From NCBI GenBank assembly GCA_963825865.1, contig CAWGVG010000022.1:32001-96000 (forward strand): 64,000 nt of DNA, in the 5' to 3' direction. This stretch comes from an uncultured Nitrososphaeraceae archaeon (lineage in GTDB: Archaea; Thermoproteota; Nitrososphaeria; Nitrososphaerales; Nitrososphaeraceae). Each line of letters starts with the position of its first letter. Position 1 is the first letter of the stretch. The notes under the pieces are model-generated. The model made no database searches and had not been told where the DNA came from. It saw only the letters and a program-made list of their open reading frames with translations. Shown here piece by piece: positions 25,405 through 55,033 of this stretch. The position numbers and the translations under genes are program-made.

Positions 25405-26541
25405 TTAACGTGTGTGATTATATATAGAAGAGTGTGTCCCACCATAAATTATCTCCTTTATCATTTCAGAATTTAGAAAATCATGAGGAAAACCCAATTC
25501 TATCTTGCTTATTTCATTTAACCTTTGCAATTGCTCATCTGATAATTCATATTTTAGACACGCCAAATTATCCTTTATCTGTGATTCTTTCCTTGAGCCA
25601 ATGATTGGTATTATTTTGCTCTCTCGTGGTAGATTTTGCTGTCTAATCCAATTCAAAGCAACCTGTGCTGGCGTACATCCAATCTCTTTAGCCGTCTTGC
25701 TAACTTCTTCGACAATCAATAAATTTCTCTCATTTAGGAGCGCATTTACTAAATCAGGGGACGTAGACTTGAACATATTTAGCCTACTATTGCCTTCTGC
25801 CACTGCCACAGTTGATGATAACATATTTTGTTGCTGACGTGGTTGTTGTTGTTGTTCTTTGTTCTTGTTATACTTACCTGTAAGAAGACCGTTACCTAAT
25901 GGTGACCACGCTGTCACTCCAATATCCAATGCACTAGCCATTGGCAACAATTCGCGTTCTGGGGTTCTTTCAATTAAACTATATTCAATCTGTAAGCCAG
26001 TAAATTCAGTCCAACCTCTAAGATTTGCAAGAGTATTAGCTTGTGAAACTACCCAAGCTGGAGCGTCAGAGATACCAGCATAGAGAATTTTCCCTGCCTT
26101 TATCATATCATCTAAAGCACGCATCATCTCTTCAACTGGTGTCGTTTGGTCCCATGCATGCACCCAGTAAAGATCTACATAATCCGTATTCAATCTTTGT
26201 AGGCTTGCCTCTAAAGATTGCATCATACTCTTGCGATGATTTCCACCAGCATTAGGATCTCCTCTTCTTGTATTTGATGTATATTTAGTTGCTAAAACAA
26301 ATCGATCTCTGTCAGATGCGATAAATTCACCAATGTATTTTTCGCTTGTACCTTCAGTATATTTGTTAGCAGTATCAATAAAATTACCACCTGCATCTAC
26401 ATACGCATTAAAGATTTTACGACATTCGTCTTTGGATGCACCCCATCCCCACTCTTCGCCAAACGTCATTGCTCCAAGACAGATTTCTGAAACTCGGAGT
26501 CCACTCCTTCCTAATAGATAATACTTCATGAGAAATTTCAC
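25405..26541 (-). CDS. Aldo/keto reductase
   Basis: LGRSGLRVSEICLGAMTFG, FIDTANKY, LATKY, DLYWVH, AWSPL. Confidence 0.93.
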   Translation of the reverse strand: MKFLMKYYLLGRSGLRVSEICLGAMTFGEEWGWGASKDECRKIFNAYVDAGGNFIDTANKYTEGTSEKYIGEFIASDRDRFVLATKYTSNTRRGDPNAGGNHRKSMMQSLEASLQRLNTDYVDLYWVHAWDQTTPVEEMMRALDDMIKAGKILYAGISDAPAWVVSQANTLANLRGWTEFTGLQIEYSLIERTPERELLPMASALDIGVTAWSPLGNGLLTGKYNKNKEQQQQPRQQQNMLSSTVAVAEGNSRLNMFKSTSPDLVNALLNERNLLIVEEVSKTAKEIGCTPAQVALNWIRQQNLPRESKIIPIIGSRKESQIKDNLACLKYELSDEQLQRLNEISKIELGFPHDFLNSEMIKEIIYGGTHSSIYNHTR

Positions 26542-27534
26542 ATGTCGTTATAAATAAAAAGTCTTCCTATCAGAAATATCTCAATTAGTCGATATTTTTT
26601 TTGCTGAAATACAGACCAGTTGATTAATCTATCTATCCATCTCTAATTATCTTTTCCTTACCTACCCTAGTGTTATCTTTATTCTATGCTGATAGCCATA
26701 TGTCAGCGTATTTCAAAAGTGGCGTTTGGCCAAAGACACTGTGAAAATATAAAATGTGTAATGCACTTTAGTAATTCACTAGTGACACAGATATCAAGGA
26801 AAAGAACTTTTGCAAAAGATGTAAGATAGTATTGTAAATCACTAGCATTTCTAGATAAGATTTCTTAGATGTCTCTGTGGGGGAAGGGTACTTTTAACAT
26901 ATGACTGTGACCATCCCATGTGACTGAGTTACATGCTGTAAATAATTTCAATCTCACGGAGACACATACAAAAAAACTACAATCATACTTTTCGTAATTC
27001 TGTAAACAGGATCTGACTTTGTGCGTATTAATTTTCTATTGAGTTCAGTTTGAAATAAGTGGCAACAGAGGAAAGCAGGTAGTAACAAGGAGGTAGCAGG
27101 ACTAACAAATTGGTAACATGTGGTAGCAACTTTATCATTCTTTTTGCATTTTTTCAACCACATTGTAGGTTTACCTGAAAAGATGCTAAAGATATACCTA
27201 TTCGTATCGAATCTTGAAGTTGAACCACAAAAAGTAATTTGTGAGTTTTTTTGTTTGTTTGTACTTTTGAGTCTGCTGAATCATGCGTCAGTATTGAGGT
27301 TGAGGGTACGTGTTATTCAACGTGATTATACTTCCAATATTTGATTAGTTTTTAGCTCCTCTATCCTTAATTGAACTATTTATCGCTTCTAGAGAAAAAT
27401 CTGCATTCTTATAAATAAATGGAAAACAACTCAGATGTTCCTATAAGAATTTAAAATACAAGATGTATTCTCCTGTTTCTAAAATGAAAAATGATTTTCT
27501 ATCTTTTAAATAATTAAAAAACTTTTTATCTCCA

Positions 27535-27936
27535 CTATGGCAAAGTCACATTAAACAACTTCTTTAGTTGGGAGATGTGGTCTGGATTTATATTTGCCCT
27601 AGGCACTCTTTTTATAATCAGTTCCCATGCGTCATAAAAATCCATGCCGAAATACTTTACTAGAACACCAAGTGCAATAGCATTACTGCGAGAGATTCCA
27701 GCTACACAGCATATAACAACCCTGCCGTGTTTTTGAATCAGCTCCCATGCAAGATCAATCTTCTTGTCATAGTCTTCTAGAGAATTAGAGCCATCATCAT
27801 ATAAATCTCGTACATCAGCTACAGGCCATCTGTCATTTGTTATTCCCACAGTTTGATAATCAACGTCTTTTAATTCATGATAACTAAATTCACGTATGCC
27901 TTCTGTGGCTAGCTTATTTTCAATTATCTTGAACAT
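27535..27936 (-). CDS. Dual-specificity (PTP-like) phosphatase
   Basis: CX5R loop CVAGISRS. Confidence 0.85.
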   Translation of the reverse strand: MFKIIENKLATEGIREFSYHELKDVDYQTVGITNDRWPVADVRDLYDDGSNSLEDYDKKIDLAWELIQKHGRVVICCVAGISRSNAIALGVLVKYFGMDFYDAWELIIKRVPRANINPDHISQLKKLFNVTLP

Positions 27937-28010
27937 AGTCAGTCTAACTAGTTATTAATGTCAATAACTGTTTTTGTTTGATAATAAATAAGTAGAGATA
28001 ATTGATGGTA

Positions 28011-28190
28011 GATAAGTTGGCTTCTAACATTGCTATACGTAGGAACATGGCTGGTGTTCATTATCGGAGTGATTATGTTGATTCATTGAAATTAGGTGAG
28101 CAGATTGCAATAAGCATCTTGGAAGATCAGACTTAAGTATAATGAGAATTATAAATTTTCATTTACTGCGTTCAATGTAATGCCAAAGAC
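28011..28190 (+). pseudogene. C-terminal relic of a vanadium-dependent haloperoxidase
   Basis: DKLASNIAIRRNMAGVHYRSDYVDSLKLGEQIAISILEDQ matches the NKLA.NI..GR..AGVH.RSD motif. Confidence 0.75.
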
Positions 28191-28271
28191 GATAGGAAAA
28201 CTATATAAAAAGGGTTCAATAATTATTTGTCTTTTTTCGTTATCATCTATATACCTTCACATATATGCTTT

Positions 28272-28495
28272 TCATCGTTGTTGAGCCATTTTATTATTAT
28301 CGTCATTATCCTCTTTAAAATGAGGAGCAATCGCCTCTGCGACAAGCTTAACTAATTTATCTCTGTTGGGACTTGAGTTTGTCAGGACAATCTCAGTGAA
28401 TCCTAAATTTACATACTTTTGTAATTTTTCCATAGCTTCTTGACCATTTGATACTACAAGTAGCATATTTTCTAATGTATCATCACCAATAACTT
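28272..28495 (-). pseudogene. C-terminal relic of an F420-dependent LLM oxidoreductase
   Basis: VGDDTLENMLLVVS...KYVNLGFTEIVLTNSSP; no N-terminal part. Confidence 0.5.
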
Positions 28496-28530
28496 GTCAT
28501 TATTGTCACTCCGATAACTTATATATCTAA

Positions 28531-28780
28531 CTATCTGTGGCAAAAAGAGATCGAGCCAAGTAATTCATTAAGAAAATGGTTTGGCCACGACCTGAAGAAA
28601 TGGAACGAATTCAAACATCGATATTATAAAGAATTAGATAAGAAAAAAGATTCAATTGGTATCGTTTTCAGGAATGCGAGAGAAGAAAGATCAGTAATCT
28701 TGCTTTATAGTGCAAAAGATGAGAAATTCAACAATGCAGTAGCTTTAAAGGAATATCTTGAAGAGAAGATGAAAAAGTAG
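28531..28780 (+). pseudogene. DUF488/YeaO-family C-terminal fragment
   Basis: LWQKEIEPSNSLRKWFGHD..KWNEFKHRYYKEL...LLYSAKDEKFNNAVALKEYL. Confidence 0.75.
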
Positions 28781-28964
28781 AACATAACCTTAGATTCCAA
28801 CATATAGCCAATCTGTAAGTTATAGATTCTATCTGTAAATTCTCATTCAGCGAGTCTATAAGTCTTCCAGGTTGATGAAAAAGACGACTATCCTGAAGCA
28901 AGTGAAGCCTTCCAAACTTGACCGAAAAGTCTTTAACATTGTTAACGAGTTATTGGTACCAAAA

Positions 28965-29160
28965 ATGACATTAACCTTGAACTGCAAAGATGCAGGAGAA
29001 TCCTGTTTGCACGCATACAATGTATGGAGAAACTGAAGAAGAACTATTGCAAAACGCCAAGAAACATGGTATGGAAGTACATGGCTATACAGAACAATCA
29101 TGGAATGAAGAAGTTGCAAAGAATGGTGAGCATTTCCGCAAGCTAATAAAGAAAAACTAG
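28965..29160 (+). CDS. DUF1059-like small metal-binding protein, frameshifted
   Basis: Close paralog of 56278-56472 (MTLTLNCKDAG...GETEEELLQNAKKHG). Confidence 0.7.
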
Positions 29161-29403
29161 CTAAATCCTTTTTCTTTTTGTTTGTTTGTTTCTGTCTTTT
29201 CACTAAATAATTATCTTATAAAATTGAACTCACTTTGGATCGAGGTTAATATTATATCTAATATTATATCTTTCTACTTAGTTGTCTGTCACATGCATAT
29301 AAAAAGAAACATGAGGTTTGGGTTACAGCACCCAAGCTTTAGTTTCGATTACAGCATACAGATACCTCTCAGGTTGTTGATTCCTTAAAGAGCAGGTACT
29401 AGT

Positions 29404-30090
29404 TAGTTATTTACCAACTTCCTAAATGAACCGTCTTTCAGCTGTGATGATTCCTGCCTCCACCAACGGTCTTTCTCCTAATGCTTTTTCTATTGCTTTG
29501 TTGCTCAATTGAATCGCTTGGTCAGTCCTCATATCTGCACTATATTCTCTCTGGATTACATCAAGGGCAATATCTGAATACTGGCCTATTGCAAAGCCAG
29601 CTCCTCTAAAGAATGTTCCACTTGGGTCTACTTGGTATAGCTGAATCCCTGTTTGGTCTATTCCAGCAATTATTATCGATGCTGCCTGCGGCCTTATCGC
29701 ATATATTGTATAGTTATGCAAGTAAGAACTGAGATGTTTTGCAAGCGAGCTTATGTCTATTGGGCTTTCATAGGTAAGCCTGTGCTTCTGAGCTCCCAAT
29801 CTTATCTCGTCAATTAACTGCAATATATCACCTATGTATCCTGAGCCAGTAGCACCTATATGTCCATCAATTGCAAATATCTTCTCAGCAGGTTCCACTA
29901 AGGGTTTGGTAGGCTTGATGTGGCTAGATATCAATGCAAAGGTTGGTGTTTTTATTCCTATAGTAGTTGAACCTCTACTAACAGCTTCTAAAGCACTATC
30001 TACTAGTACCAGCCTACCTTCAGGGCCGTAGTAGTAAGGGTATCTAGTGTTGTTACCAATACCTCCAGCGCCACCACCCATTTCCGCCAT
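29404..30090 (-). CDS. Divergent proteasome alpha subunit; probable frameshift at the extreme C-terminus
   Basis: GPEGRL, EAVSRGSTTIGIK, EKIFAIDGHIG..GSG, LYQVDPSG, AIG. Confidence 0.88.
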
Positions 30091-30092
30091 TT

Positions 30093-30676
30093 CTAATGAG
30101 TCACCTCCTCTTTAACTACTAACAAGTTTGGCATCACCAGTACATCGATACCATTTCCTGATCCTGGGTCTCGTTCCATTGCTGCTGCTACAGCCTTAGT
30201 GGCGATTTCTTTTGCCTGTTCATTGGTTATATCCTTGTTGTATACACTTTCAAGCACTCCATATGCTATGGGAGAACCCGAGCCAGAAGATGCAAAGTCT
30301 TCACTAGTTATTGCGCCCTCATATCCGCTGCAAATACATGTCCACCTTCTCGGTCCACACCAGCCACTAACAATTCTACGAAGTATGGCTGGTAATTCTT
30401 AAGACCAGAATATGCAAGGTTTGCAATTAGCCTTGCTGATTCCTTTACTGTGAGTGGAAACCCCCTACGCACTCCATTAGCCTCCTTTCAGCTTTTGCAA
30501 CTTTAATCATATACTCCGCATCTGATAGACTGCCCAGCTATCGCTACTGCAAGAGTATCATCTATCTTTGCTATTTTCTGCGTTATCTTTGAACCTATGA
30601 AAAAGCCTTTGCTTGCTCTCTTATCTGATCCAAGTACAACGCCTTCTTTTGTTTTAATGCCAACTATTGTTGTCAT
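30093..30676 (-). CDS. Proteasome beta subunit (absent from the ORF track; several frameshifts)
   Basis: MTTIVGIKTKEGVVLGSDKRASKGFFIGSKITQKI (Thr1/Asp17/Lys33 spacing), SSGSGSPIAYGVLE, ERDPGSGNGIDV. Confidence 0.88.
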
Positions 30677-30899
30677 TCTCTATTTTTCCCTAACTCCTGT
30701 AATACCATAGGAAAGATAAGCATTAATTGACTAGGATTTGCAGAAGTAAGTCACACATATACACATGTAGTAGTGGTGAAATCGCTATTGTGAAGGCCTC
30801 GACATTGGCTATGCTTGGCTCCAAAAGTAATCATGACAAAGGATGACCATCTTTGCTGAGTGTATGTGTCTGCATATATGATAATCATTGCAAACTGTT

Positions 30900-31285
30900 A
30901 GTCACAAACTTTCTCCTGCAGGAATTAATGCCAAATTAATCAAGAAGATTGACTGCGTATTCTCGTTCAGCGATTCTAGGAGTTTCATATCTGTAAGCTT
31001 CAGCATATCAACATCTGGGCTGGCGTTTTTCCGTAGTTCTTTGCTACCGCCAGGATATTTGGGTGGTTAAGCTTCTTACCTATGGGCTGCGGTCTGTAAG
31101 CTTCCAGCTAAATCCTGTTCTTCTCGCAGAAACGTAATAAATCCTCCGGCTATAGAAATGGTTGAAATTCTACCGTTCACTGCAGGCACAACATCAGAGT
31201 TCCAAAGGATCTCTTCCAGCTGGTCTATCGGGTAATCACTCACCCCAATCGCCCTGGCTTTACCCTCATGCAATATCTGAACTTA
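30900..31285 (-). pseudogene. Aldo/keto reductase relic
   Basis: EGKARAIGVSDY, VVPAVN.VEFQPFL across frames. Confidence 0.65.
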
Positions 31286-31501
31286 GCCTGTCATGTCTCT
31301 AGACCAAGCTAACTTGCTAGACCTAGCCTTGCAATGACCAGTGGGATCCACATAGGCCAAACTCAAGAATCAGCAAGAATATGCGTGTATAGTTTGGCTT
31401 TGTATTCCTCTATTCATTTAGCACACAAAGCAATTTAATTTGTAAAGTATAACTGTGACAAATCCTGTCGCACCTTGCCCAGAATCTCTGTTACCTTGTC
31501 A

Positions 31502-31720
31502 TTACTGGTTGTTTTTAAATGACATAGTCGGAGTCATCTTCATCAAGGTGTCTATTGTCTTTATCATCCCTTTGGCCAGGTCTTCTGCAGAGTAGGTTCT
31601 ACTCAACAAATTAAGATATGTCTCTCCAACATTTAAGATATCGTTCTCAGTTAAACCAAGTTGGAAAAGTTTCGTTAGCATGTTACCTACGAAGGGACCA
31701 GCCCCAAGAATCTGCAACAT
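31502..31720 (-). pseudogene. Fragment of an unknown protein
   Basis: Coding-like 72 aa stretch within a decayed region. Confidence 0.3.
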
Positions 31721-32626
31721 ATTTTCTCGCTTCTCCTTGAGTATCTCTTGCCGAGCCTACAGTGATTATTACATTTTCCAATTTATACTTTGAATCATAT
31801 GTCATAGTTGATGCAATAGGAAAATTATGTCAGATAATAATGATAAACAAGAAGAACACGATGAAATGATTCCATTTTTTAGCATCAGCTTCTAGAGACT
31901 TTGATAAAGATCTGATTATTAAACCTGATTTTAACATTCTAGTAGGTTGTACTTTTGGCTCTAAGAGCACTACAAGTCCATGAGTAAAGATTCTTCCTGC
32001 AGTTATCTTTATGAGCTGCCAGACCCATTTTATCTAATTCGTTTGTAAAATGCTGGTTCATGAGTGTTGTTCTTAATTTGAGTCGTCCTGTTTCGTTCTC
32101 TTTATCCAGGCTTTTTATATCGATGCCTATTATTTCTATCTTCTTACGCCAAGAAGAAGTTGATATTGACGCCTATAAGAATAATTCATATTGCGCGACC
32201 TATCTATCCCAATTTGTTACATAGGTAATTTTTAATAATGATCCAAGAAGACGAAAGATGTCCAGTATGTAATCAATGCTTTCCAAATGTTCCTGATCAC
32301 ATCAGCAATGTGCACGGAATTGATATAAACCTGGCAAAGTGGATATTACGATTGCAAGCTAGGATAGAATCCTTGGAAACACATGAGAAAAAATGACATG
32401 TCATATCATCGATTGCCAGATATGTTGAACAATATATGCAATATATATACATGTAAATATATGCATGCCTTATATTGTTTGTATATATATACATTTATAT
32501 ATATATTGAACATACTGCTAGAATTCGTATTGGAAGAGGACCAAATGCAACCAACTTTTGATAATTCATCTATATGTTATTCCAGCATCCCTTCAGTTCA
32601 TTTATTTCTTAAAAATCTTTAGATGG

Positions 32627-32782
32627 TTGGAATGTCTTGGAATCGATTTGGAATGGAAAAAAATATTGGAATGATTTAATGATTACCTCATGTACCTATT
32701 TACTCTTTTCCAAATGCTTTCCAAACAGTTTTCCAAGCTTTTCCAAGGCTTTTTGTTGGAAAAATAATTATTCCAGTTGGAA
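32627..32782. repeat. Phased TTGGAA/TTCCAA hexamer array
   Basis: TTGGAA at 32627, 32637, 32648, 32666, 32756, 32777; TTCCAA at 32708, 32719, 32731, 32741. Confidence 0.75.
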
Positions 32783-34195
32783 AAAATAAAATGTTTACTG
32801 CTAGTATTACTTTAGTTTACATACGGAGTAAAAGTAATACAGAATGACATGTATACTTTAGTAAACTAAATAAAAAATGTAGAGATTATCTATTAATCCC
32901 AATTACTTATGTCTTTATTAGTTCGTCAACCTTTGTCTGGAAGATTCCAATCTTTTGTTCCAGTCAATTCATTTACGATTTTATCCCTATTTTGTTTTTT
33001 CTTTGTCATTTATGTTTTGTTTCACCTCAAGTATTCAATGAATTACCAGTTAGCGACCAGAAGAAATTTCTGTTTCAGCTTTGGAATACAATTATAAAGA
33101 ATTATGAAATGATTCATGGTGCACAACTTTCAAATTCATTTATTCTCTTAATGCTCAATGAAGCCAAGGATGCCAAAGTCCCAGAACTTGGGACTGTGGG
33201 TCTCAGAGAAGAGAGCAGATTATCAAATTTCTAGATACGAAAATTAAAACCATCGAAGAAGATCCTGATGCGAGATGGATTACTACATGGAATCATTACA
33301 TAAGCCGTATAAAATATTTTTTTAGATGGCTCTATAATGCATATAGTAAGAAAAATTCGGAAAGTTTTTCTGCTGCTTCGCACATAATGACCGAATACAA
33401 CAGTAACAACCTTCTATGTATTGTCAAAGGGCGCCGGTACCCCCTTTTGTTGCACTTAGGATTAATTAGAAAGTAACAAAAACTGAACATGTACACCGCC
33501 TCATTCCTCTTTTAACCAAAGAGAGATAGGAAAACCTCTTTTCTGCTGAATGATTGCAACAGTATATAACAAATCTTCTAAAGAGGAAAGAGAAATATTA
33601 TTCAAGTATTCAAAAGGCCATTATCTTCTTGGACAGATTTTCCTTTATCAACAATTTATTCATAATGTAATCTTAGGAAAACCTAAGGATCTTGTAAACT
33701 CTCTCTCTTGATTAGTATTATAATTTCATCTTCTATTGTGTCTTTGTGTGGTACTTGTGGCAATAGTCTCCTGATGGTAACTTCGGTTGTGATGATAATG
33801 GAAAGAGATGAGGAGGACAATCAGGCTACAGTTTGACAGTCATTTTACCATCTGCATCCATTCGGTAAGCCAGTGAATATACGGATAACAACGGCAAATG
33901 GATATACAGACTTTATGATTATGCTTGATTTTTATCGCCAAGGTTGTTGCTTGAGTAGTGATTCTTGATTGCAACAGAAGAACAGATATCAAACATGAGT
34001 CTATCTTTTCCTTTATGTCTTTATATTTTAATGGAAACAAACAAATGCAAATTTCCTATGATATGGTAACGGATCATGAACCCGAAACATTTAACGTTGA
34101 TATTCTGATTGGCCATGAGTTGGGCATATCTGAATCTTATTGGCTCATACAAAGAAGTATGTGCACAGTCTATTGACAATAAATGGAGTGGCTTT

Positions 34196-36466: not shown

Positions 36467-37427
36467 TTGAAGATGGGTATTGTTTTACCTATAGCAGGAG
36501 AGCAGGCTACAAGAGAAAATATAATTCAAATAGCAAAACAAGCTGAGAAAGAGGAGTTTGATTCTTTATGGGTTTGGGAAAGACTTGTGGTGCCATTAAA
36601 GTCACAAACACAATATCCATTAACTCCTGATGGATATGTAGGTATGGCCTTCCAACTGAGTTTCACAATGCTTTTAATAACTTGGAGACACTTAGTTTTG
36701 TAGCTGCAAATACAGAAAAGATTGCATTAGGGACATGTGTTATAGATATGCTATTCCATACTCCTGTAATATTAGCAAGAAGATTTGCAACGCTTGATAT
36801 TCTTTCGCGAGGAAGAGCTATATGTGGACTTGGCATTGGGTGGTTAAAAGATGAATATCAAGTTTCCAATATACCGTTTAAAGAAGAGGTAAAAGAGCAG
36901 ACGAAGATATTCAAGTGTTAAAAAAGATAATGACAGACGATGTTGTAGAATTTAAGGGGGAATTTTATAACATACCTGCTTCTAAAATAGGACCTAAGCC
37001 ACTTCAGAAGCCACATCCTCCTATTTACATGGGAGCATTTAGTCCAAAAGCATTTAGAAGAATTGTAAATTATTCAGATGGGTGGATAGGTATGGTTGTT
37101 GAAACTCTTGAAAATTTTGAGAATACAATGAATACGATAAAGGATATGGCTGTTAAAGAAGCAAACAAAGATGCGAATAGATTCAAAATAGTTCTTTTGA
37201 CATATCCAAAGGTGGAGGAGGATTCAAGTTCATCTAAAAAAGAAGAAGAAGGTCAAAGGCCTGCTCCATTGACTGGCACCATAGATCAAATAGGTGGTGA
37301 TCTCAAAAGAATTAAGGATATGGGAGTAGAACATATCATATTCGGCTATGATTTTTTGCCCATAGCTAGAGATGATATCAGCAATATGATTGGTATTACA
37401 AAACAGCTTTCTAAATTTTGTAGGTAA
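36467..37427 (+). CDS. F420-dependent LLM-class oxidoreductase; two frameshifts
   Basis: FDSLWVWER, LSFVAANTEKIALGT, LARRFATLDILSRGR, PKPLQKPHPPI. Confidence 0.88.
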
Positions 37428-42124: not shown

Positions 42125-43314
42125 ATGAATTTGAAAGTAAAGAAGAAAAACAACCAGAACAATATAAAATTTGGTTGTTACATATACCAAGATGGTTTAA
42201 GATATAAAGATGTATTACGTATTACATTAGAATGCGAAAGATTAGGATATGATTCAATATGGTTAAAGGATAACTTTATTCCTTGGATTCAGGATTATCT
42301 GATATCGCGATTAAATAATAACAATAATAACGTCAAAGGTAGAAGCCTTTCAAAGCATCAATATCCACAACATCAACTTAATCAACTGCAGCAATATCAA
42401 GAACCACATGAAAGAAGGGTAATGCTTGAATGTTGGACTGTGCTCTCTTCACTTGTAGCCTTAACTAGAAAAATAAAACTTGGCGCGATATTAGTCAATC
42501 CATATCGTAACCCCGCAATTGTAGCAAAAATGGCTACTACTTTAGATAACATAAGTAATGGAAGATTGGAACTTGGACTAAGTGCTGGTTGGTATCAAAA
42601 AGAAGCAAAAGCATACGGAGTGGCATTTCCATCAGGTTCTACTAGAGTTGAGATGTTAAAAGAAAGCATTATAATAATAAGGAAAATGTTGCACTCCAGT
42701 AACAACAATAAAAACAATAATAATGCCAAACTTTCTTTTAAAGGAAAATATTACAATATATCAAATGCAGAATGCAATCCAAAACCAATCCAAAAACCAT
42801 ATTTACCGATCTGGATTGGCGGAGGAGGAAAAAAGACTCTTGATATAGTAGCAAAATATGCCGATGGTTGGAATTATGGGCTTTGCTCTTTTGAGGAGTA
42901 TTTACAGAAAACATCTTTTCTAAAGCATTATTACAATATTGATAATAATAATAATAAAATAATAAAGTGACCGTCAGAAATTATAAAGATATAATCAGAG
43001 GGTGGCATGGTATTTTACTTCTGGGTAAAGATGAAGAGGAATTGAAGAAAAGAAAAAACAAATTATTAGATAAAAAAGGAAAATGGAAAGGTTCGAATCT
43101 TATTATAAGTGGAACACCTAATACAATATTAAATGAAATAACCAGATACTTGAATATCGGTGTAACATATTTTACGATATACTTTCCAGATTTACCAGAT
43201 ACAAGGTCTTTACAATTATTTGCAGAGCATATTATTCCTAATGTTAGGAGTCTTGACATGCGGTTTTGCTCTAAACTGATGATGGTGGCTAACCTTGGAA
43301 TAATATTGGCTTAG
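42125..43314 (+). CDS. LLM-class flavin/F420 oxidoreductase, split at an Asn-rich tract
   Basis: GYDSIW, YRNPAIVAKMATTLD..SNGRLELG..AGW, PKPIQKP..PIWIGGGG. Confidence 0.85.
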
Positions 43315-49059: not shown

Positions 49060-49710
49060 CTAAGGGCCGCTCCAGTCAAAAGGAATATACTTACTCGACC
49101 TGCCATTCCACTCCCATTTAAAGCCCATTGCATCCACCTCATCAGTTACAGCTTTTCCCCATGTTGCAACTGCTCCAGGTCCTACCTCGCTTCCAGGTGG
49201 GTTAAGTGTTATAACCCGTTTGCCAGTCGGAGTCATAGGTCCACTTAAGGCTTCAGCCTTCGCAACCACCTTTCCCGGTATCTCTGCGCTCCAATGACCA
49301 AGATCGTCTGCGACTTCGAATTTGATAGGAGCAAACTCTAGTCCACGGACCTCTCCTATCAGCTTGGCAAATTCGGCCATAAAGCCACCAGCCTTTCCGG
49401 TGAAAATCATCTGCAGAGCTTCTCGCTGTTGTTGATTGGCTAGCTCATCAAAGAATAAGCCAAGATTTATTTTTGTCTTTCCGTCACCTGCCCAGATATT
49501 ACCCGTAAAACTTCCCAGCCCTAATACGTTTAAACCATCTAGAGCTGTTTCACCATATTGTCCCTTATGTATATGGTATACAAGTACTGCATCGCAATCA
49601 CCAAAAGTCGGAGTCTGGGCGAACTCGCATGGACATGGTATGTTGCAGTTGCAGACGTCAAACCAACCTCCCGAAACCATCCACTTCGGTATATTAGTAG
49701 TAGTCGCCAT
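49060..49710 (-). CDS. DUF1326-domain protein
   Basis: CNC..PCPC..PT.G.C, DE.A...QREAL..IF.G..GG. Confidence 0.85.
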   Translation of the reverse strand: MATTTNIPKWMVSGGWFDVCNCNIPCPCEFAQTPTFGDCDAVLVYHIHKGQYGETALDGLNVLGLGSFTGNIWAGDGKTKINLGLFFDELANQQQREALQMIFTGKAGGFMAEFAKLIGEVRGLEFAPIKFEVADDLGHWSAEIPGKVVAKAEALSGPMTPTGKRVITLNPPGSEVGPGAVATWGKAVTDEVDAMGFKWEWNGRSSKYIPFDWSGP

Positions 49711-50744
49711 ATCGCTAAGTACCAGGATAACTATTTTAGCATTACATGTATTTTGATTTGGGTCTTTAAAAATGACCCCGGACCATATCTACCAAAACAA
49801 CCGACAAAGACCCTCAATATCTCTTCCTCAGGTAGGAGGCATGACTCTATCTACTACCATCTAGGGGCTCTTTTGCTTCAGGAAAAGTAACCATTTATCT
49901 ACTTTCTCGCCAATTGTTTTTGTCATTGAACATTTTCTCTTCTCTCCTTCCTCTTCTTGCATAGTCATTCATTCTATATCGGTTCATCAGCTGGCGGCTT
50001 TGCGCTTGAAGCGGCGTCTTTGGTGTTTCATTTTGATGACTAACCATGTTTCTGTCTACTACCATCCATATGCGATTGAATTAATAGAGCTATTTTCTTA
50101 TCTATGAATAATACTTGCAATATAGGATCAAACCATTTCTCCGTTTCTATGTTATTTATCCATTAGGCGTTTATCAGCCCAGTTTCAAAGTGATTTTATT
50201 TTACGAAAGATTTTGTAAGTAAATATGGATCTTGACAATTTGTTGGCTTCATGAATCTGTGTGCTAAAAATTGGATAGAAGTTCTTATGCTCGTTGACTG
50301 CCTAGGGAAAAGGGAGATCATTTGAAGGAGCGTTACCCGGAGCATTGCCTGAAGGAGAAATAACGGGTTTACTGCAAGATGGTGTTTGTCACATTTCCTA
50401 TCAGAGCACCACCACTAGGGGCGCTAGTATTAGAACTTGTACCGGGTTTGGTGAAGGTGCCTGTCGAGGCGGCACAGGAGCTTGCGTTCATGGTTGAGCT
50501 GATGCAGATGACGATGGCACAGAAGAAGCTCTAGCATTTGTTAAGATAGGAGTTGCGGCCATATTATTCTGTGCATTCTACTACATAGGTGCTCCCAAAT
50601 AATAGAGTTATTTCTATTGCAATACGGCGACACTTTCCAGACATGTCTGGGTAACTGAAACTGGACATTACGTGTTTTGACTTTCCTTTCCTCGTTTTGT
50701 CCTCACCTTTTCCATCTTGTTTGCAATTCTTTCTTACTCACACG

Positions 50745-50850
50745 ATTGCTGTCTCCTTTCAATATCTTGCACTCTTGCTGTCAAAACCATAAGCTGATCT
50801 GATAGCCGTGCTATGGCATCATCTTTAATCTTGTCACGATTTCTCAATGA
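50745..50850 (-). pseudogene. Possible C-terminal coiled-coil tail of a thaumarchaeal tyrosine integrase
   Basis: LRNRDKIKDDAIARLSDQLMVLTARVQDIERRQ; recognised by recall only, no catalytic residues seen. Confidence 0.35.
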
Positions 50851-51482
50851 TCTTCTGATAAATGCTGAATCTCAAGGAAATAGATCATTAAGCTTAAGTG
50901 TCTTAATACAATAAGACTTGACTCTTTAGTCCTTCATGGGTGACAAAATTGAGTCGAATTTGTTCTGAATCGGCAGCTGCCTTTCATGTACTGATAAAGA
51001 CCTGAATTATTTTATTTATCACTTTTTATCTTCACTGACAAGGTTACTGCTGCGTTTGCAGATTCTTGAATATGATCCCTAGATTCGGTTACAGACATTA
51101 TAAGTTTCATGTTTTCTGATTTTCTTCTAGTCACGTTCACATACGCTTCAAATCCTATCAACTTCTACTACTAGCAGAAGCAGGAAATTTAGGGCAGCGA
51201 TCTATCTATCTATTTATCTTTAAGACAACTTGAGACAAAAGGCCTATAATGCAGGTCTGGAAAAAAGCAACTCTCAAGCAGATTACCTAAAATCACAAGC
51301 AAACAACAAGCCATAAACTCGTTTTCAATGATAATCATCTTTCTATCATATACAGATAGAATATCTTCGCCATTTGATGTCAAGTCTCATCAATATGACT
51401 GAAACTGAGAGAATAGAGGATTCGGAAGTTCTACACTTTGCTTTCTCTGAATGAACGTTCAAGAAAATAAAATGTTAGAAAC

Positions 51483-51683
51483 TCAAGCCATTTGTCGTGG
51501 TGCTAACTGCGATGGTGGTTGAGTATTCAGAGCATTTGGAACGTTTGGATTTACATTTGGGGCTGCCGTACCACTACTTGTGTTAGGGCATGCTTGAGCT
51601 GATTGAATAGCAACACTACCTATCACTACAAACGCGCTTGCAAACACTAACGCTAGAGCAGCTATTAGAACTGTTTTATTCAT
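51483..51683 (-). CDS. Small secreted protein
   Basis: Signal peptide ending AQA-C, Pro/Asn-rich tail. Confidence 0.6.
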   Translation of the reverse strand: MNKTVLIAALALVFASAFVVIGSVAIQSAQACPNTSSGTAAPNVNPNVPNALNTQPPSQLAPRQMA

Positions 51684-51839
51684 TAGAAAATATCCTCGAT
51701 TATATTATATAAAGGATTTGGTGGTAAATAGGAAACTAATAAAGCCAAGCTAATATTGTTTTTGACTTTTATCGAGCCCAAATATCATGTCAAATTTGAT
51801 TCACATACTCTTGTGAATATGCAAATACCCATTGAGGGA

Positions 51840-52019
51840 TTAGTTTTGCTGTGATGATGATTCCAACATTTTTGCTTTATTAAAACACTCTTGGGCAGCC
51901 TTTTCTACGCCTAACCTAGAAAGACAATTACCTTTCTTTTTCCATGTATACGCGTCATTTGGATCTATCTCCAAGCAGTTATCATAACATTCTATAGCTT
52001 GTTTGTATTCGCCTAGCAT
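51840..52019 (-). pseudogene. TPR fragment
   Basis: MLGEYKQAIECYDNCLEIDPNDAYTWKKKGNCLSRLG. Confidence 0.7.
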
Positions 52020-52140
52020 GTTAAGTTATTGTCTTTTTCGTTCATAATATCATGCCACTTATCTGTCCTAACAAGACTTTGAAGGCATTATATACTATTC
52101 AATTTTGGAAAGTTTTACAGAGCTATGATTAAGATGCTTA

Positions 52141-52230
52141 TACTGATTTTGTTAGCTGAAGTAACGCCTCGCCGTAACGTGGTCTTATGAGTTCAAATAT
52201 GCTGCTTGACGCATCTGACGGCGCATTTGA
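52141..52230 (-). repeat. Left arm of a ~90-bp imperfect inverted repeat
   Basis: Reverse complement aligns ungapped to 56172-56261 (hand count 70/90 identical). Confidence 0.8.
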
Positions 52231-52257
52231 GCTAAAGCAATGTGTAGTTAGGTTTAA

Positions 52258-52563
52258 TCATGGAATAGAAATACCTACAGCCTTTAATTGATTGATTACG
52301 TAGCTCACCTCAGCTGCAGTAACTCTTGTTATCGTAGAATTCTTTCTATGCTGCAGCATTGCATTTACAAGTTGAGATATCATTTCTGCATCATAAAAAG
52401 CGTTAGATTCAGACAGTAATTCTGCCACTTTAGGTACATCGGTATTGCTAGTTATCTTTCCACTAGTTATTAGCCCGCCAAACTTCTGAACTGATTCATA
52501 TACTCCAATATTATATGCTATGAAAGCAATCTTTTCAGGAGGTAGAATATCAATAGACTCCAT
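52258..52563 (-). CDS. Hypothetical protein
   Basis: Clean 101 aa ORF with ATG start. Confidence 0.65.
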   Translation of the reverse strand: MESIDILPPEKIAFIAYNIGVYESVQKFGGLITSGKITSNTDVPKVAELLSESNAFYDAEMISQLVNAMLQHRKNSTITRVTAAEVSYVINQLKAVGISIP

Positions 52564-52671
52564 AATACATCTAACTGATAATAGTCTGTATCATCTATAC
52601 TTTATCCCGTTTTTCCCATAGTATAATCAATAAATACAAACTACATATTTTATACAAACTTACATGATATA

Positions 52672-52970
52672 ATGCCTTCCAAACTTCCTGATAGTGTTAA
52701 GTTACTAGTGGTACAACAATGGCTAACTGGTGCACAAAGGGATAAAATCGCAGCTGATAATGGCCTTAGCGTTGGAGCTGTAACAAAAAGTCAACGAATG
52801 GAGACATGCATTAGGTTTTTCTGCAGCAGACGAATTAAGGGAGCTGGCTGTTACATTAAAGAAAATTGGTATATCTGCTGCTCAATGTGCTCTAGGTTTC
52901 AGAACTGCAATGACGATGAATAGGTTAGGAGTAAAAGAGGATAACTTTGAACCATTTATGTCATCATTGT
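52672..52970 (+). pseudogene. 5' fragment of an HTH-starting multi-copy Nitrososphaeraceae-type protein
   Basis: VVQQWLTG..RDKIAADNGLSVGAVT, then a shifted frame ADELRELAVTLKKIGISAAQCALGFR; truncated. Confidence 0.55.
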
Positions 52971-52984
52971 CGCTGTTACCAAGA

Positions 52985-53310
52985 TTCCATTTCTTTATAA
53001 GCTGATTATTCGCAATTGTGAAAGAATCTTGCGACATGATATAGTCAGACTGATGGTTGAGTCTAAGGAAATAATACTTTCTATTAGGTGCGCCCAGATG
53101 GCTCTTTTCTTCATATGTTTTAAAAGCCTCCCTCTTCTAGCGCTTGTATGTGGCGCAATATGGATTGTTGGCCTATTCCTATCTCCTTTGCTAACTGGTT
53201 AAACTACATCGGTTCCTCTGAGAAGAGCTGAGAGTATTTTTCGCCGGGTTACGTTACCAAGAACATCTAAAATAAAATTAGGGTTTATTTTTTTGTTATT
53301 TTATCTGCAA
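52985..53310 (-). pseudogene. ArsR-like HTH regulator relic
   Basis: ILDVLGNVTRRKIL...EPM*FNQLAKEIGIGQQSILRH...APNRKYY with an in-frame stop. Confidence 0.65.
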
Positions 53311-53479
53311 TCATTACAAATGCGAAGTTAACTATGTTAAGTAACATTCAAAAGATAAATGAACGGGTTGAGTTTTAACTATTTGGGAGTGATTAGGTAA
53401 TATTATTAAATTCATAAGAAAAAGAATAAAAAATCCATTAACAACAGCAGCGGATGACAGCAGGAATAATGGTGGTAGT

Positions 53480-53749
53480 TTGAATTCTAAAGTAAAACAG
53501 ATTATTATTTTAGGCATAATCCTATCAGTAATCGGTATTGCTGGTGCGATTTATTACGGATTGCAATTTGTAAAAGAAGAAGTAAATGCAGGCGGGACGT
53601 TTCCCTATACTACGCCATCTCAAGTCAAAAACATATCACCTATAGACTTGGAAATAGTATTTGTCTTTGTCATGTTGGTAGGATTTGGAATAGTCACCTA
53701 TGGATTCGTTGAAAGAGTAGATAAACCATTTGATTCATATCCAACATAA
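53480..53749 (+). CDS. Small two-TM membrane protein
   Basis: Two hydrophobic segments. Confidence 0.6.
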   Translation: MNSKVKQIIILGIILSVIGIAGAIYYGLQFVKEEVNAGGTFPYTTPSQVKNISPIDLEIVFVFVMLVGFGIVTYGFVERVDKPFDSYPT

Positions 53750-54206
53750 ATATGCATTTCGTAATCACTTGTAGTTGCTGCGAGCACCAGAAACATAGAA
53801 TGACTAACCTTTTCTCATTGGTGATGATTTCTACTGAGCCACCTTAAATGTAGTTGTACCAGCAAGCTCTAATTCTTGTCATACGATATTTATCAATTAA
53901 ATTCTCTGCCAGTCTTAGAACTGATGAATAATTATCAATCTGTTTATATCTTCTTCTGTATCTTTTGCAGTTGCTAGCTTTGATATTTTTATACAATTCC
54001 TTTACATCTTTACTCCCATTTTTCCATACTGATTAAGCTATTTGTACCGCAATGCTCGGAGGTAATTTTTGCATAGCCTCTTCATTGAATTTTATATGGT
54101 AAAACATTTCTGTAAAGGTTCATAGCTTAATGACATAGAATGCAGACGAAATTAACAAATTGAAAAGAGCTGTAATGCGAGCTGCACAGATTCTTGTTCT
54201 TTCTAT

Positions 54207-54542
54207 CTAAATCGCCTCTTCATTTTCTGCACCTGATTCGATGTCAATTGCACGTGCAATTGGCCAGATAAAGATCTTTCCCATTTTTAGAATTTGCTCT
54301 TATGATATTGATTGTATCCTTTTCTTTATCGTCAGGTACGACCACTTCAAGTTTGTATTTGTCACCAAATTCGGGCGTGTACATTTCTGTTCCTTTAGAG
54401 GCGTGGAGTTTCTCTGCAATAGTCTTACCTCTGCCTTTGACTTTTAAATAGTAATGCCGCCAACGTTAATCTTTTTCAAAGCATCACTAATGCGTTTGAC
54501 GTCGTTTTGAGGAATTATTACAGCTATTTAGACAAGTAGCAT
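54207..54542 (-). pseudogene. P-II family nitrogen regulator pseudogene
   Basis: DALKKINVGGIT..KVKGRGK...YTPEF...LEVVVPD...GKIFI; in-frame TAA at codon 5 plus frameshifts. Confidence 0.78.
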
Positions 54543-55033
54543 ATCTTTTAATCTTTTATATTAAAAAATAGTGGTTTATTTGTAATAAAAATGAAAAACT
54601 ACTTATATTTACTTAGATGATACCAATTGATTGTTCATCGGTTGCTCCGGATGCTTCTTTTCTATCTTTATCTAATTAATTTTGTGATGATTGTCTCAAT
54701 CTAAAGATGCAACCTCTTAGCATTGAGCTGGGCTATTAACAGTCAGAAAGACAAGTCCAGTATAACAAGGATTGAAACTTTACTGACCCAGTATTAATGC
54801 AGAGTAAAAAAAGGTAGAAAGAGCTAACCCTGTATTATCGTGACAGATACGCATTGATCTAATAGTTGCGCAATAAGATTATCAGAAAGTCGATCTATTC
54901 GAATTGTCTTGAATCGTCAGGAATAAAATAATGTCTCATTTAATCACATAAAAATTGATAGATAGAAGATTTTTTCTAAATTAAGTATTTTAATATTTTT
55001 ATGTCGGGCGTAGAATCTCTAATATATAGTAGT

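What the first reader, a model, noticed from the sequence alone, without database searches (positions are those of the whole stretch)
29404..30676. Non-canonical proteasome beta-alpha operon: beta without a Gly-Thr processing site, alpha without the gate motif
Seen: a beta gene missed by the ORF track begins M-T-T-I-V-G with exact Thr1/Asp17/Lys33 spacing plus SGSG and RDxxSG. It stops 2 nt before an alpha gene whose GGAGGTGA ribosome-binding site lies inside beta. Established: archaeal beta subunits are normally activated by autocleavage at Gly-Thr of a propeptide; alpha gates use the Tyr8/Asp9/Pro17/Tyr26 cluster; housekeeping alpha and beta genes are usually unlinked. Here alpha reads GGGAGGIGNNTRYPYYYGPEGRLVLVDSA, so Y8, D9 and Y26 equivalents are replaced while R10, P17 and the EKI lysine remain. 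Inference: a second, self-contained 20S-like protease with different gating, activated by Met removal, located in an accessory region. Caveat: an out-of-frame ATG ~32 nt upstream could encode a short leader if a base is missing, but residue -1 would still be Met.
Basis: partly seen in the sequence, partly recalled or inferred. Interest (0 to 1): 0.75.

Follow-up and report, generated by a model that had tools for sequence, protein, structure and literature searches.

The report
Second, operon-encoded proteasome in soil archaea
This soil ammonia-oxidising archaeon carries, besides its normal proteasome genes, a conserved two-gene cassette for an unusual second proteasome whose catalytic subunit needs no self-cleavage and whose gate subunit has lost the usual gate motif; the apparent breaks in the gene are assembly errors.

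Summary
On the minus strand a proteasome beta gene (30676-30093) starts Met-Thr-Thr and ends 2 nt before an alpha gene (30090-29403). The three beta frameshifts, and a fourth indel in the alpha tail, are assembly errors. Contigs from three other studies carry the correcting indels, and essential genes elsewhere in this assembly are broken in the same way.

The genome, a Nitrososphaeraceae member by the titles of its nearest relatives, also has a canonical alpha, an active beta with a Gly|Thr propeptide and an inactive beta. The operon is therefore a second set. It is patchy: 112 of 201 sampled genomes of the family, the Nitrosotalea-type genera, and none of the sampled marine genera.

Its sister operon in Methanomethylicaceae has the same propeptide-less beta, but its alpha keeps the Tyr-Asp-Arg and Tyr26 gate residues. 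The gate loss is thus specific to the ammonia oxidisers.

A new result is a conserved element, GTGAC-N18-GTCAAT, upstream of beta in 69 of 70 ammonia-oxidiser loci and 8 of 8 Methanomethylicaceae loci. It also precedes neighbouring HtrA-like protease genes, and a homologous winged-helix regulator is often adjacent.

Best reading: a regulated accessory 20S-type protease for protein quality control. Assembly, gating and induction remain untested. I found no description of it in print.

The parts
30721..30754 (-). Conserved upstream element GTGAC-N18-GTCAATTAATG. It is an imperfect inverted repeat whose 3' half abuts an AT-rich TATA-like box. Presumed operator plus promoter of the operon.
   Evidence: Alignment of 17 upstream regions. 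Present within 27-51 nt of the beta ATG in 69 of 70 ammonia-oxidiser loci and 32-35 nt upstream in 8 of 8 Methanomethylicaceae-type loci. It is the only strong weight-matrix hit in the own genome, 39.6 bits against 18.2 for the next. The function is inferred.
30093..30676 (-). Proteasome beta-type gene without a propeptide (Met-Thr-Thr start). In this assembly it is broken by three indel errors: an extra base at 30529, and a missing base after 30471 and after 30317.
   Evidence: three PF00227 pieces; contigs of 2-3 other studies carry the correcting indels; with those indels the frame is one open 194-codon ORF, 93.8% identical to the L012 orthologue; catalytic residues invariant. TIGR03634 scores 207 bits against a cut-off of 224.
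30101..30108 (-). GGAGGTGA, a Shine-Dalgarno-like sequence for alpha, inside the 3' end of beta and 10 nt before the alpha ATG.
   Evidence: Read directly from the sequence. Its use as a ribosome-binding site is inferred.
29403..30090 (-). Divergent proteasome alpha-type gene. It has a variable Gly/Ser/Asn-rich N-tail, lacks the YDR and Tyr26 gate residues and keeps Lys66. The ORF as written ends early at 29422 because of one extra base at 29439.
   Evidence: PF00227 at E 5.6e-40, no PF10584. (156-172 bits, below both alpha cut-offs of 219 and 287). (residue mapping). (tail corrected to a 228-aa protein, 98.2% identical to P0001).

Best explanation
The locus is an intact-in-nature, translationally coupled beta->alpha operon. 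It encodes a second, accessory 20S-type proteasome pair in a soil ammonia-oxidising archaeon of the Nitrososphaeraceae. The beta subunit is a normal threonine protease in every catalytic residue, but it is made without a propeptide. Removal of the initiator Met would expose Thr1, so activity would depend on assembly and not on autolysis. The alpha subunit keeps the alpha fold, the H0 region and the Lys66 docking pocket. It has replaced the Tyr8-Asp9 and Tyr26 residues that hold the gate open with a variable flexible tail followed by an aromatic R-Y-P-Y-Y-Y segment, so gating should differ from the housekeeping particle. Expression is probably controlled at the conserved GTGAC-N18-GTCAAT site overlapping the promoter, by a winged-helix regulator that is adjacent in many genomes. 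The same site precedes HtrA-like protease genes, which places the pair in a protein quality-control or stress regulon. Shown here: gene structure, conservation, paralogy, distribution, the cis element, and that the frameshifts are artefacts. Inferred: Met removal, formation of a separate alpha7beta7beta7alpha7 particle, altered gating, the regulator-operator pairing and stress induction.
For: Frameshifts are artefacts. Contigs of X2, X4 and X9 (three studies) carry +G after 30317. X2 and X9 carry +G after 30471 and -1 at 30529. All three carry -1 at 29439. Applying these four changes gives open frames of 194 and 228 codons. The RNA polymerase B gene lies in three frames with stops, class-I aminoacyl-tRNA synthetase genes are split, and both housekeeping beta genes are split. 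Second set. Conservation: 72 of 80 loci have an open beta frame starting MTTI[VI]G just upstream of alpha, and the other 8 have under 600 nt upstream. The beta-alpha gap is -1..+5 nt in 30 of 35 pairs. Mean column identity is 85% for beta and 69% for alpha. Cross-lineage identity (G120, Nitrosocosmicus-like by its alpha N-tail, versus G074, Nitrosotalea-like) is 80% for operon beta and 70-76% for operon alpha. The housekeeping genes give 59% and 66% for the two betas and 74-75% for alpha. Alpha forms its own clade (SH-aLRT 100, stem 0.44) apart from the ammonia oxidisers' housekeeping alpha. Its sister is P0131 (support 93). The relatives of P0131 are named Methanomethylicaceae or Verstraetearchaeota by their sources. 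Those genomes have five PF00227 genes including the same operon. Their beta is 59% identical, and their regulator is homologous at E 2e-24. Cis element. Of 17 further hits in the loci, 14 lie upstream of an HtrA-like gene and 1 upstream of an FMN reductase gene. [quoted passage not shown] PAN is absent from Thaumarchaeota (PMC3493965, passage seen).
Against: There is no direct evidence of expression, assembly or activity. The alpha model is of modest quality (mean pLDDT 65.8, residues 1-39 below 50), so nothing structural can be said about the gate. In this genome the regulator homologues lie on another contig (C15), not beside the operon. No second strong operator was found in it. The best HtrA orthologue (C18) has no such site, and the FMN reductase gene (C23) has only a deviant one, GTCAC-N19-GTCAT. 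The short pattern alone is not enriched genome-wide: 10 hits against about 12 expected. The operon is missing from 89 of 201 sampled genomes of the family, including 0 of 25 in genus g4, so it is dispensable. The HtrA link was seen only in Nitrososphaera- and Nitrosopolaris-type loci.
Confidence: 0.7

Rival explanations
1. The two proteins are alternative isoforms that enter mixed particles with the housekeeping alpha, beta1 and beta2. They would tune specificity or gating and would not build a separate particle. Recalled precedents are Haloferax alpha1/alpha2, the Sulfolobus beta pair and immunoproteasome subunits.
For: Ammonia oxidisers already run a multi-subunit core, with an active and an inactive beta everywhere and a second canonical-like alpha in marine genera. 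Beta scores close to the archaeal beta equivalog (207 against 224 bits), so its ring contacts may be compatible.
Against: Tight translational coupling of one beta with one alpha is conserved across two archaeal classes. Both partners show a high and parallel level of conservation. This fits a co-evolving pair. Alpha is only 37% identical to the housekeeping alpha.
Confidence: 0.2
2. The window copy is a decaying pseudogene: the beta frameshifts are real, and the locus is a remnant in a degrading accessory region.
For: Three frame breaks in 584 nt. The flanks hold only short ORFs and gene fragments, such as an aldo/keto-reductase piece at 31076-31273.
Against: Independent contigs of three studies restore all frames. 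Essential genes of the same assembly are equally broken. Apart from the indels, beta is 93.8% identical to an intact orthologue and has no stop or missense at catalytic residues.
Confidence: 0.03
3. These are simply the organism's housekeeping proteasome genes, unusual only in being linked.
For: Source databases name the alpha 'proteasome alpha subunit'.
Against: A canonical alpha and two canonical betas exist elsewhere in this genome, and in every ammonia-oxidiser genome examined. The operon is not found in most sampled genomes of the class.
Confidence: 0.01

Closest known systems
Archaeal 20S proteasome (Thermoplasma acidophilum, Archaeoglobus fulgidus; PDB 1pma, 1j2q, 6he5)
   Same: Both genes fall in PF00227. 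The best solved relatives of beta are Archaeoglobus beta chains (E 2.4e-40), and those of alpha are archaeal alpha chains (E 2e-37). All catalytic residues of beta and Lys66 and Pro17 of alpha are kept.
   Different: Beta has no propeptide and no Gly-1. Alpha lacks Tyr8, Asp9 and Tyr26 and the PF10584 signature, and has a 2-residue deletion before the EKI motif. Both score below the NCBIfam equivalog cut-offs. The genes are linked and preceded by a dedicated cis element.
The beta-alpha operon of Methanomethylicaceae (Verstraetearchaeota), found here
   Same: Same order: regulator, beta, alpha. Same propeptide-less (M/L)TT start in 8 of 8 loci. Same GTGAC-N18-GTCAAT element. Beta is 59% identical and the regulator is homologous. 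It is also an extra set beside a canonical trio.
   Different: Its alpha keeps Y-D/G-R, Pro17 and Tyr26 and mostly carries PF10584 (41 of 45 listed relatives). It just reaches the NF003075 cut-off (220.8 against 219).
HslV (bacterial ClpQ)
   Same: It starts Met-Thr-Thr, and Thr1 is exposed by Met removal without a propeptide (recalled knowledge).
   Different: TIGR03692 scores only 19-23 bits against a cut-off of 157.75. HslV has no alpha partner.
Actinobacterial prcB-prcA proteasome operon
   Same: Beta-then-alpha gene order in one operon (recalled knowledge).
   Different: Scores against the bacterial beta model (75.8-79.6 bits) are no higher than for the housekeeping archaeal beta (84.3), and all are far below the 191.9 cut-off. 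There is no sign of special kinship.

Membership tests
Archaeal proteasome beta subunit (PF00227 / TIGR03634, MEROPS T1) | Ntn-hydrolase proteasome fold | tested here: met
   PF00227 on all three pieces. AF2 model of the L012 orthologue: pLDDT 84, with the beta-sandwich and helices.
Archaeal proteasome beta subunit (PF00227 / TIGR03634, MEROPS T1) | Catalytic Thr1, Asp17, Lys33, Gly47, Ser129, Asp166, Ser169 | tested here: met
   T2, D18, K34, G48, the S131-S133 GSGS region, D170 and S173 are invariant in 31 sequences.
Archaeal proteasome beta subunit (PF00227 / TIGR03634, MEROPS T1) | Score at or above the curated equivalog cut-off (224 bits) | tested here: not met
   207.0 and 205.4 bits. 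The housekeeping beta of a relative scores 226.8.
Archaeal proteasome beta subunit (PF00227 / TIGR03634, MEROPS T1) | Propeptide removed by autolysis at Gly-1|Thr1 | tested here: not met
   Met directly precedes Thr1. An in-frame stop lies two codons upstream in the window. Upstream residues are not conserved in the 72 loci.
Archaeal proteasome beta subunit (PF00227 / TIGR03634, MEROPS T1) | Assembles into beta7 rings between alpha7 rings | not testable with these tools
   Needs co-expression and native analysis.
Archaeal proteasome alpha subunit (PF00227+PF10584 / TIGR03633, NF003075) | Proteasome fold with an N-terminal extension and no N-terminal Thr nucleophile | tested here: met
   PF00227 over residues 37-208. 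About 40 residues precede the GSTTIG strand.
Archaeal proteasome alpha subunit (PF00227+PF10584 / TIGR03633, NF003075) | N-terminal signature PF10584 (Y-D-R ... P-D-G ... Y) | tested here: not met
   No PF10584 hit. The only hit in the genome is the C60 alpha. None of the 120 listed homologues carries it.
Archaeal proteasome alpha subunit (PF00227+PF10584 / TIGR03633, NF003075) | Score at or above the curated cut-offs (287.35 and 219 bits) | tested here: not met
   156-163 and 165-172 bits. The housekeeping alpha scores 293 and 321.
Archaeal proteasome alpha subunit (PF00227+PF10584 / TIGR03633, NF003075) | Lys66 pocket for HbYX tails of activators | tested here: met
   K70 is invariant and aligns with Thermoplasma Lys66. 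Binding itself was not tested.
HslV | Equivalog score (TIGR03692, 157.75 bits) | tested here: not met
   19.2-22.9 bits.

The most novel reading that the evidence does not exclude
The cassette encodes an inducible 'stress 20S'. A dedicated winged-helix regulator switches on, at one deeply conserved operator, a propeptide-less beta and (in ammonia oxidisers) a gate-less alpha, together with an HtrA-type protease. Without the Tyr8/Asp9/Tyr26 latch the alpha ring would be a constitutively accessible pore, or one gated in a new way, that degrades damaged or unfolded proteins without an unfoldase. The lineage lacks PAN. It would be an archaeal counterpart of ATP-independent 20S degradation of oxidised proteins, and a self-contained and easily lost or transferred proteasome module.
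Probability: 0.3. Interest if true: 0.75.

Novelty: new variant of a known kind. Interest (0 to 1): 0.6.

Why it matters
Archaeal proteasomes are the textbook simple model: one alpha, one beta, unlinked genes, a propeptide of unknown function and the YDR gate. Here a whole second core-particle gene pair is kept under strong selection in abundant soil nitrifiers and in Methanomethylicia. Nature has done two classic mutagenesis experiments in it: propeptide deletion in both lineages, and gate-residue replacement in the ammonia oxidisers only. This gives a natural paired comparison for asking what the propeptide and the gate cluster are for. It also gives a defined regulator-operator-target set for archaeal proteostasis control, which is directly testable in cultured Nitrososphaera, Nitrosocosmicus or Nitrosotalea. 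It is also a caution: the broken beta gene and the low ORF density of this window come from assembly indels.

Tried and rejected
Complex prediction of alpha with beta (collected) gave no verdict (score 0.02, mark 0.32, controls not run). It counts neither for nor against binding.

The alpha structure model was too uncertain at the N-terminus to read the gate. I ran no fold searches, because the sequence matches to solved chains were already decisive.

The ESM Atlas returned only generic proteasome-alpha clusters.

Synteny: flank proteins of ten relatives' loci, used as queries, found no counterpart next to the operon in the window, so only the operon itself is syntenic here.

A special link to bacterial proteasome operons was considered and dropped.

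The motif GTGAC-N15-20-GTCAAT alone is at chance frequency in the genome. Only the phylogenetically conserved instance, and the weight-matrix score, single out the beta promoter.

Run X1 had the highest word share but laid only one 39-nt piece, so it says nothing.

Literature. Nine searches found no description of this operon. I saw passages only of PMC5666114, PMC3493965, PMC2948915, bioRxiv 10.1101/2025.02.13.638070 and PMC12650242. For PMC8665760 I saw passages and section 3.1. Supplements are closed. The cluster-map files of PMC8665760 and the proteome tables of Nitrososphaera viennensis studies could bear on novelty and expression, and I could not see them. The Kerou et al. proteomics paper is recalled only and was not seen.

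Unpublished genomes. The tally of 11 of 151 includes G132. The tally of 112 of 201 includes G181 and G223. Without them the tallies are 10 of 150 and 110 of 199.

Full report
What is in the window. The feature lies on the minus strand. A beta-type proteasome gene starts at 30676 with M-T-T-I-V-G-I-K and runs to a TAG at 30095-30093. Two bases later an alpha-type gene starts at 30090. An in-frame stop sits two codons before the beta ATG. As written, beta is split over three frames (57, 54 and 78 codons). Each piece matches Pfam PF00227. Alpha is an open 222-codon ORF with PF00227 (E 5.6e-40) but without the alpha N-terminal signature PF10584.

The frameshifts are assembly errors. I laid contigs of four public runs from four studies on 29300-30800. 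X2, X4 and X9 carry an extra G after 30317. X2 and X9 carry an extra G after 30471 and lack the base at 30529; X4 does not cover those two places. All three lack one base at 29439. X1 gave only a 39-nt piece. Applying these four changes in a script gives a single 194-codon beta frame, 93.8% identical to the intact L012 orthologue. It also gives a 228-codon alpha, 98.2% identical to the database protein P0001 over its full length. So the alpha tail in the window (...AERRFI*) is wrong as well. The true end is ...AKDGSFRKLVNN. The same assembly (4.98 Mb, 62 contigs, completeness 81.8%) has its RNA polymerase B gene in three frames with internal stops. Its class-I aminoacyl-tRNA synthetase genes are in pieces, and both housekeeping beta genes are split. 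No indel was seen in the beta leader in X2 or X9, so no hidden propeptide is created by a missing base.

It is a second set. The genome has a canonical alpha on C60 (…[21 protein letters not shown]…, the only PF10584 hit). It has an active beta on C14 with a propeptide ending …IKKG|TTT, and a beta on C3 with G|ATAVG, in which Thr1 is replaced by Ala. The same trio is present in all five related genomes examined. The operon pair is an addition in two of them. NCBIfam tells the sets apart. The housekeeping alpha scores 293 and 321 bits, above both cut-offs, and the housekeeping beta scores 226.8 against 224. The operon alpha scores 156-172 (fails both), and the operon beta 205-207 (just fails).

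Conservation and distribution. A scan of one genome per species found 115 related stretches. The best 80 (72-91% identical) are titled Nitrososphaeraceae, Nitrososphaera, Nitrosopolaris, Nitrosocosmicus, Nitrosotalea and some Nitrosopumilaceae/Nitrosopumilales. In 72 of these 80 loci an open beta frame starting MTTI[VI]G lies directly upstream. The other 8 have under 600 nt upstream. The beta-alpha gap is -1 to +5 nt in 30 of 35 pairs measured. Mean column identity is 85% for beta and 69% for alpha. Between G120 (Nitrosocosmicus-like by its alpha N-tail) and G074 (Nitrosotalea-like), the operon beta is 80% identical and the operon alpha 70-76%. The housekeeping genes give 59% and 66% for the two betas and 74-75% for alpha.

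The operon is nevertheless patchy. In a class-wide sample only 11 of 151 genomes have a true orthologue (E below 1e-100). These are the own family and two genera of the Nitrosopumilaceae family in the tool's coding. One of those genera is Nitrosotalea-like, with 7 of 7 genomes positive. All others top out near E 1e-40 on their housekeeping alpha. In the own family 112 of 201 genomes have it (69 of 114 high-quality ones), in 12 of 18 genera. One genus has 0 of 25. These tallies include unpublished genomes G132, G181 and G223.

Origin. In a tree of 107 alpha-type sequences rooted on betas, the operon alphas form one clade (SH-aLRT 100) on a long stem (0.44). The clade is separate from the ammonia oxidisers' housekeeping alpha and sister to P0131 (support 93). 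Sources name the relatives of P0131 Methanomethylicaceae, Verstraetearchaeota or Methanosuratincola. In a phylum-wide sample its orthologues were found in 20 of 25 genomes of one family. Those genomes have five PF00227 genes: a canonical trio plus an operon. That operon reads regulator, then beta, then alpha. Beta starts (M/L)TT with no Gly-Thr in 8 of 8 loci and is 59% identical to the ammonia-oxidiser beta. Alpha there keeps Y-D/G-R, Pro17 and Tyr26. The propeptide-less beta and the operon are therefore old. The gate loss is a derived trait of the ammonia-oxidiser branch.

The alpha N-terminus. Alignment to solved Thermoplasma alpha chains maps alpha residue n to Thermoplasma residue n-6. 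Positions 8 and 9 are variable (N/G/S/T/A). Arg10, Pro17, Gly19 and Lys66 are invariant. Position 26 is Ser in at least 90% of sequences. The stretch between Arg10 and Pro17 reads Y-P-Y/S-Y/F-Y. Ahead of it lies a Gly/Ser/Asn-rich tail of about 4-20 residues that always starts M-A/S-E/D. The role of the Tyr8/Asp9/Pro17/Tyr26 cluster in stabilising the open gate is recalled knowledge. PMC3493965 (passage) states that conserved Pro17 and Gly19 indicate a common activation mechanism, and that Thaumarchaeota lack PAN. The AF2 model of alpha is weak (pLDDT 65.8, N-terminus below 50). The beta model is good (pLDDT 84).

A conserved cis element and a probable regulon. Aligning the upstream regions showed an invariant GTGAC, 18 bases, then GTCAAT(T)AAT. 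It occurs within 27-51 nt of the beta start in 69 of 70 ammonia-oxidiser loci with enough upstream sequence (66 with an 18-nt spacer and 3 with 19). It occurs 32-35 nt upstream in 8 of 8 Methanomethylicaceae-type loci. In the window it lies at 30754-30721, and it is the only strong weight-matrix hit in the whole genome (39.6 bits, next 18.2). Its 3' half runs into an AT-rich box at the distance expected for a TATA box of a leaderless or short-leader transcript. That reading is an inference.

The 72 loci hold 17 further matches. Of these, 14 lie directly upstream of an HtrA-like trypsin-PDZ protease gene, one lies upstream of an NADPH-dependent FMN reductase gene, and two are unassigned. A winged-helix (MarR/ArsR-like) protein is encoded next to the operon in 32 of 80 ammonia-oxidiser loci. 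A similar gene lies upstream in the three Methanomethylicaceae loci whose ORFs I listed, and the one compared (L114) is homologous at 30% identity, E 2e-24. In this genome its homologues lie on contig C15.

How it most likely works. Beta is translated with Thr at position 2. Methionine aminopeptidase normally removes Met before Thr (recalled knowledge), which would expose the nucleophile. [quoted passage not shown] Translational coupling would deliver equimolar alpha. With Lys66 kept, HbYX-bearing partners such as Cdc48 could still dock. Without the Tyr8/Asp9/Tyr26 latch the pore must be open, plugged by the flexible tail, or gated in a new way. The shared operator with HtrA-like proteases and the linked regulator point to conditional expression in protein quality control. 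Which stress induces it is unknown.

Novelty. Source databases already call these genes proteasome subunits. Nine literature searches and the passages listed under Tried and rejected did not show me the second operon, the loss of the propeptide and gate, the Methanomethylicaceae counterpart, or the operator. The 2021 survey of proteasome homologues (section 3.1 read) treats archaeal alpha and beta as single clusters and describes only more distant families.

Noticed in passing
whole genome; e.g. G000:C44:25097-26220, C8:89619-91317, C14:36022-36664, C3:130553-131171: Essential genes are split over frames with internal stops: RNA polymerase B, class-I aminoacyl-tRNA synthetases and both housekeeping proteasome betas. 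The assembly carries frequent indel errors, about 4 in the 1.27 kb checked against other contigs. These probably explain the 81.8% completeness and much of the low ORF density.
   Followed up: partly
window 26500-34000 and 49700-55000: Long stretches lack any ORF over 110 codons and hold gene fragments: an aldo/keto-reductase piece at 31076-31273 and a luciferase-like monooxygenase piece at 36915-37427. At 4.98 Mb the genome is larger than most sampled genomes of its family (about 0.8-4.9 Mb). I did not resolve whether this is error, decay or real non-coding DNA.
   Followed up: partly
G000:C3:130553-131171 (-) and loci L101-L104, L107: All ammonia-oxidiser genomes examined have a housekeeping beta paralogue with ...PG|ATAVG, in which Thr1 is replaced by Ala. 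It is presumably a non-catalytic beta.
   Followed up: partly
L105 (G008:C1:1409871-1410416) and many marine genomes: Marine Nitrosopumilaceae-type genomes lack the operon. Instead they carry a second canonical-like alpha (…GYDMTPTMYSPDGRIYQVEYA…), 60% identical to their first alpha.
   Followed up: partly
G000:C14:153182-153358 (L007:1498-1935) and L112:1204-1980, L113:1153-1977: Further divergent proteasome-family proteins start Met-Thr. One is a 258-aa MTTALLIKSKEG... protein in relative G120, and its truncated counterpart in this genome lies beside a 215-aa ORF (L007:1910-2557) that I did not annotate. Another is a 274-aa MTICIGAIS... protein. They may belong to the distant homologue families surveyed in PMC8665760.
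   Followed up: no
window 30674-30709 (-): An 11-codon upstream ORF (MVLQELGKNRE) ends in a TGA that overlaps the beta ATG (ATGA). The roughly 20-nt insert that holds it is present only in this lineage's closest relatives and absent from most loci.
   Followed up: partly
G000:C23, about 50 nt upstream of the FMN reductase gene at 42393 (-): An operator-like sequence, GTCAC-N19-GTCATTAAT, shares the ACTAGGTTTAT core with HtrA-gene operators of relatives. It deviates in one half-site and in spacing. It may be a second target in this genome or an error-damaged site.
   Followed up: partly
window 27535-27936 (-), 28990-29160 (+): A small dual-specificity phosphatase-like ORF (PF00782, E 3e-11) and a DUF1059 ORF lie downstream of alpha. 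They are not conserved next to the operon in relatives.
   Followed up: no
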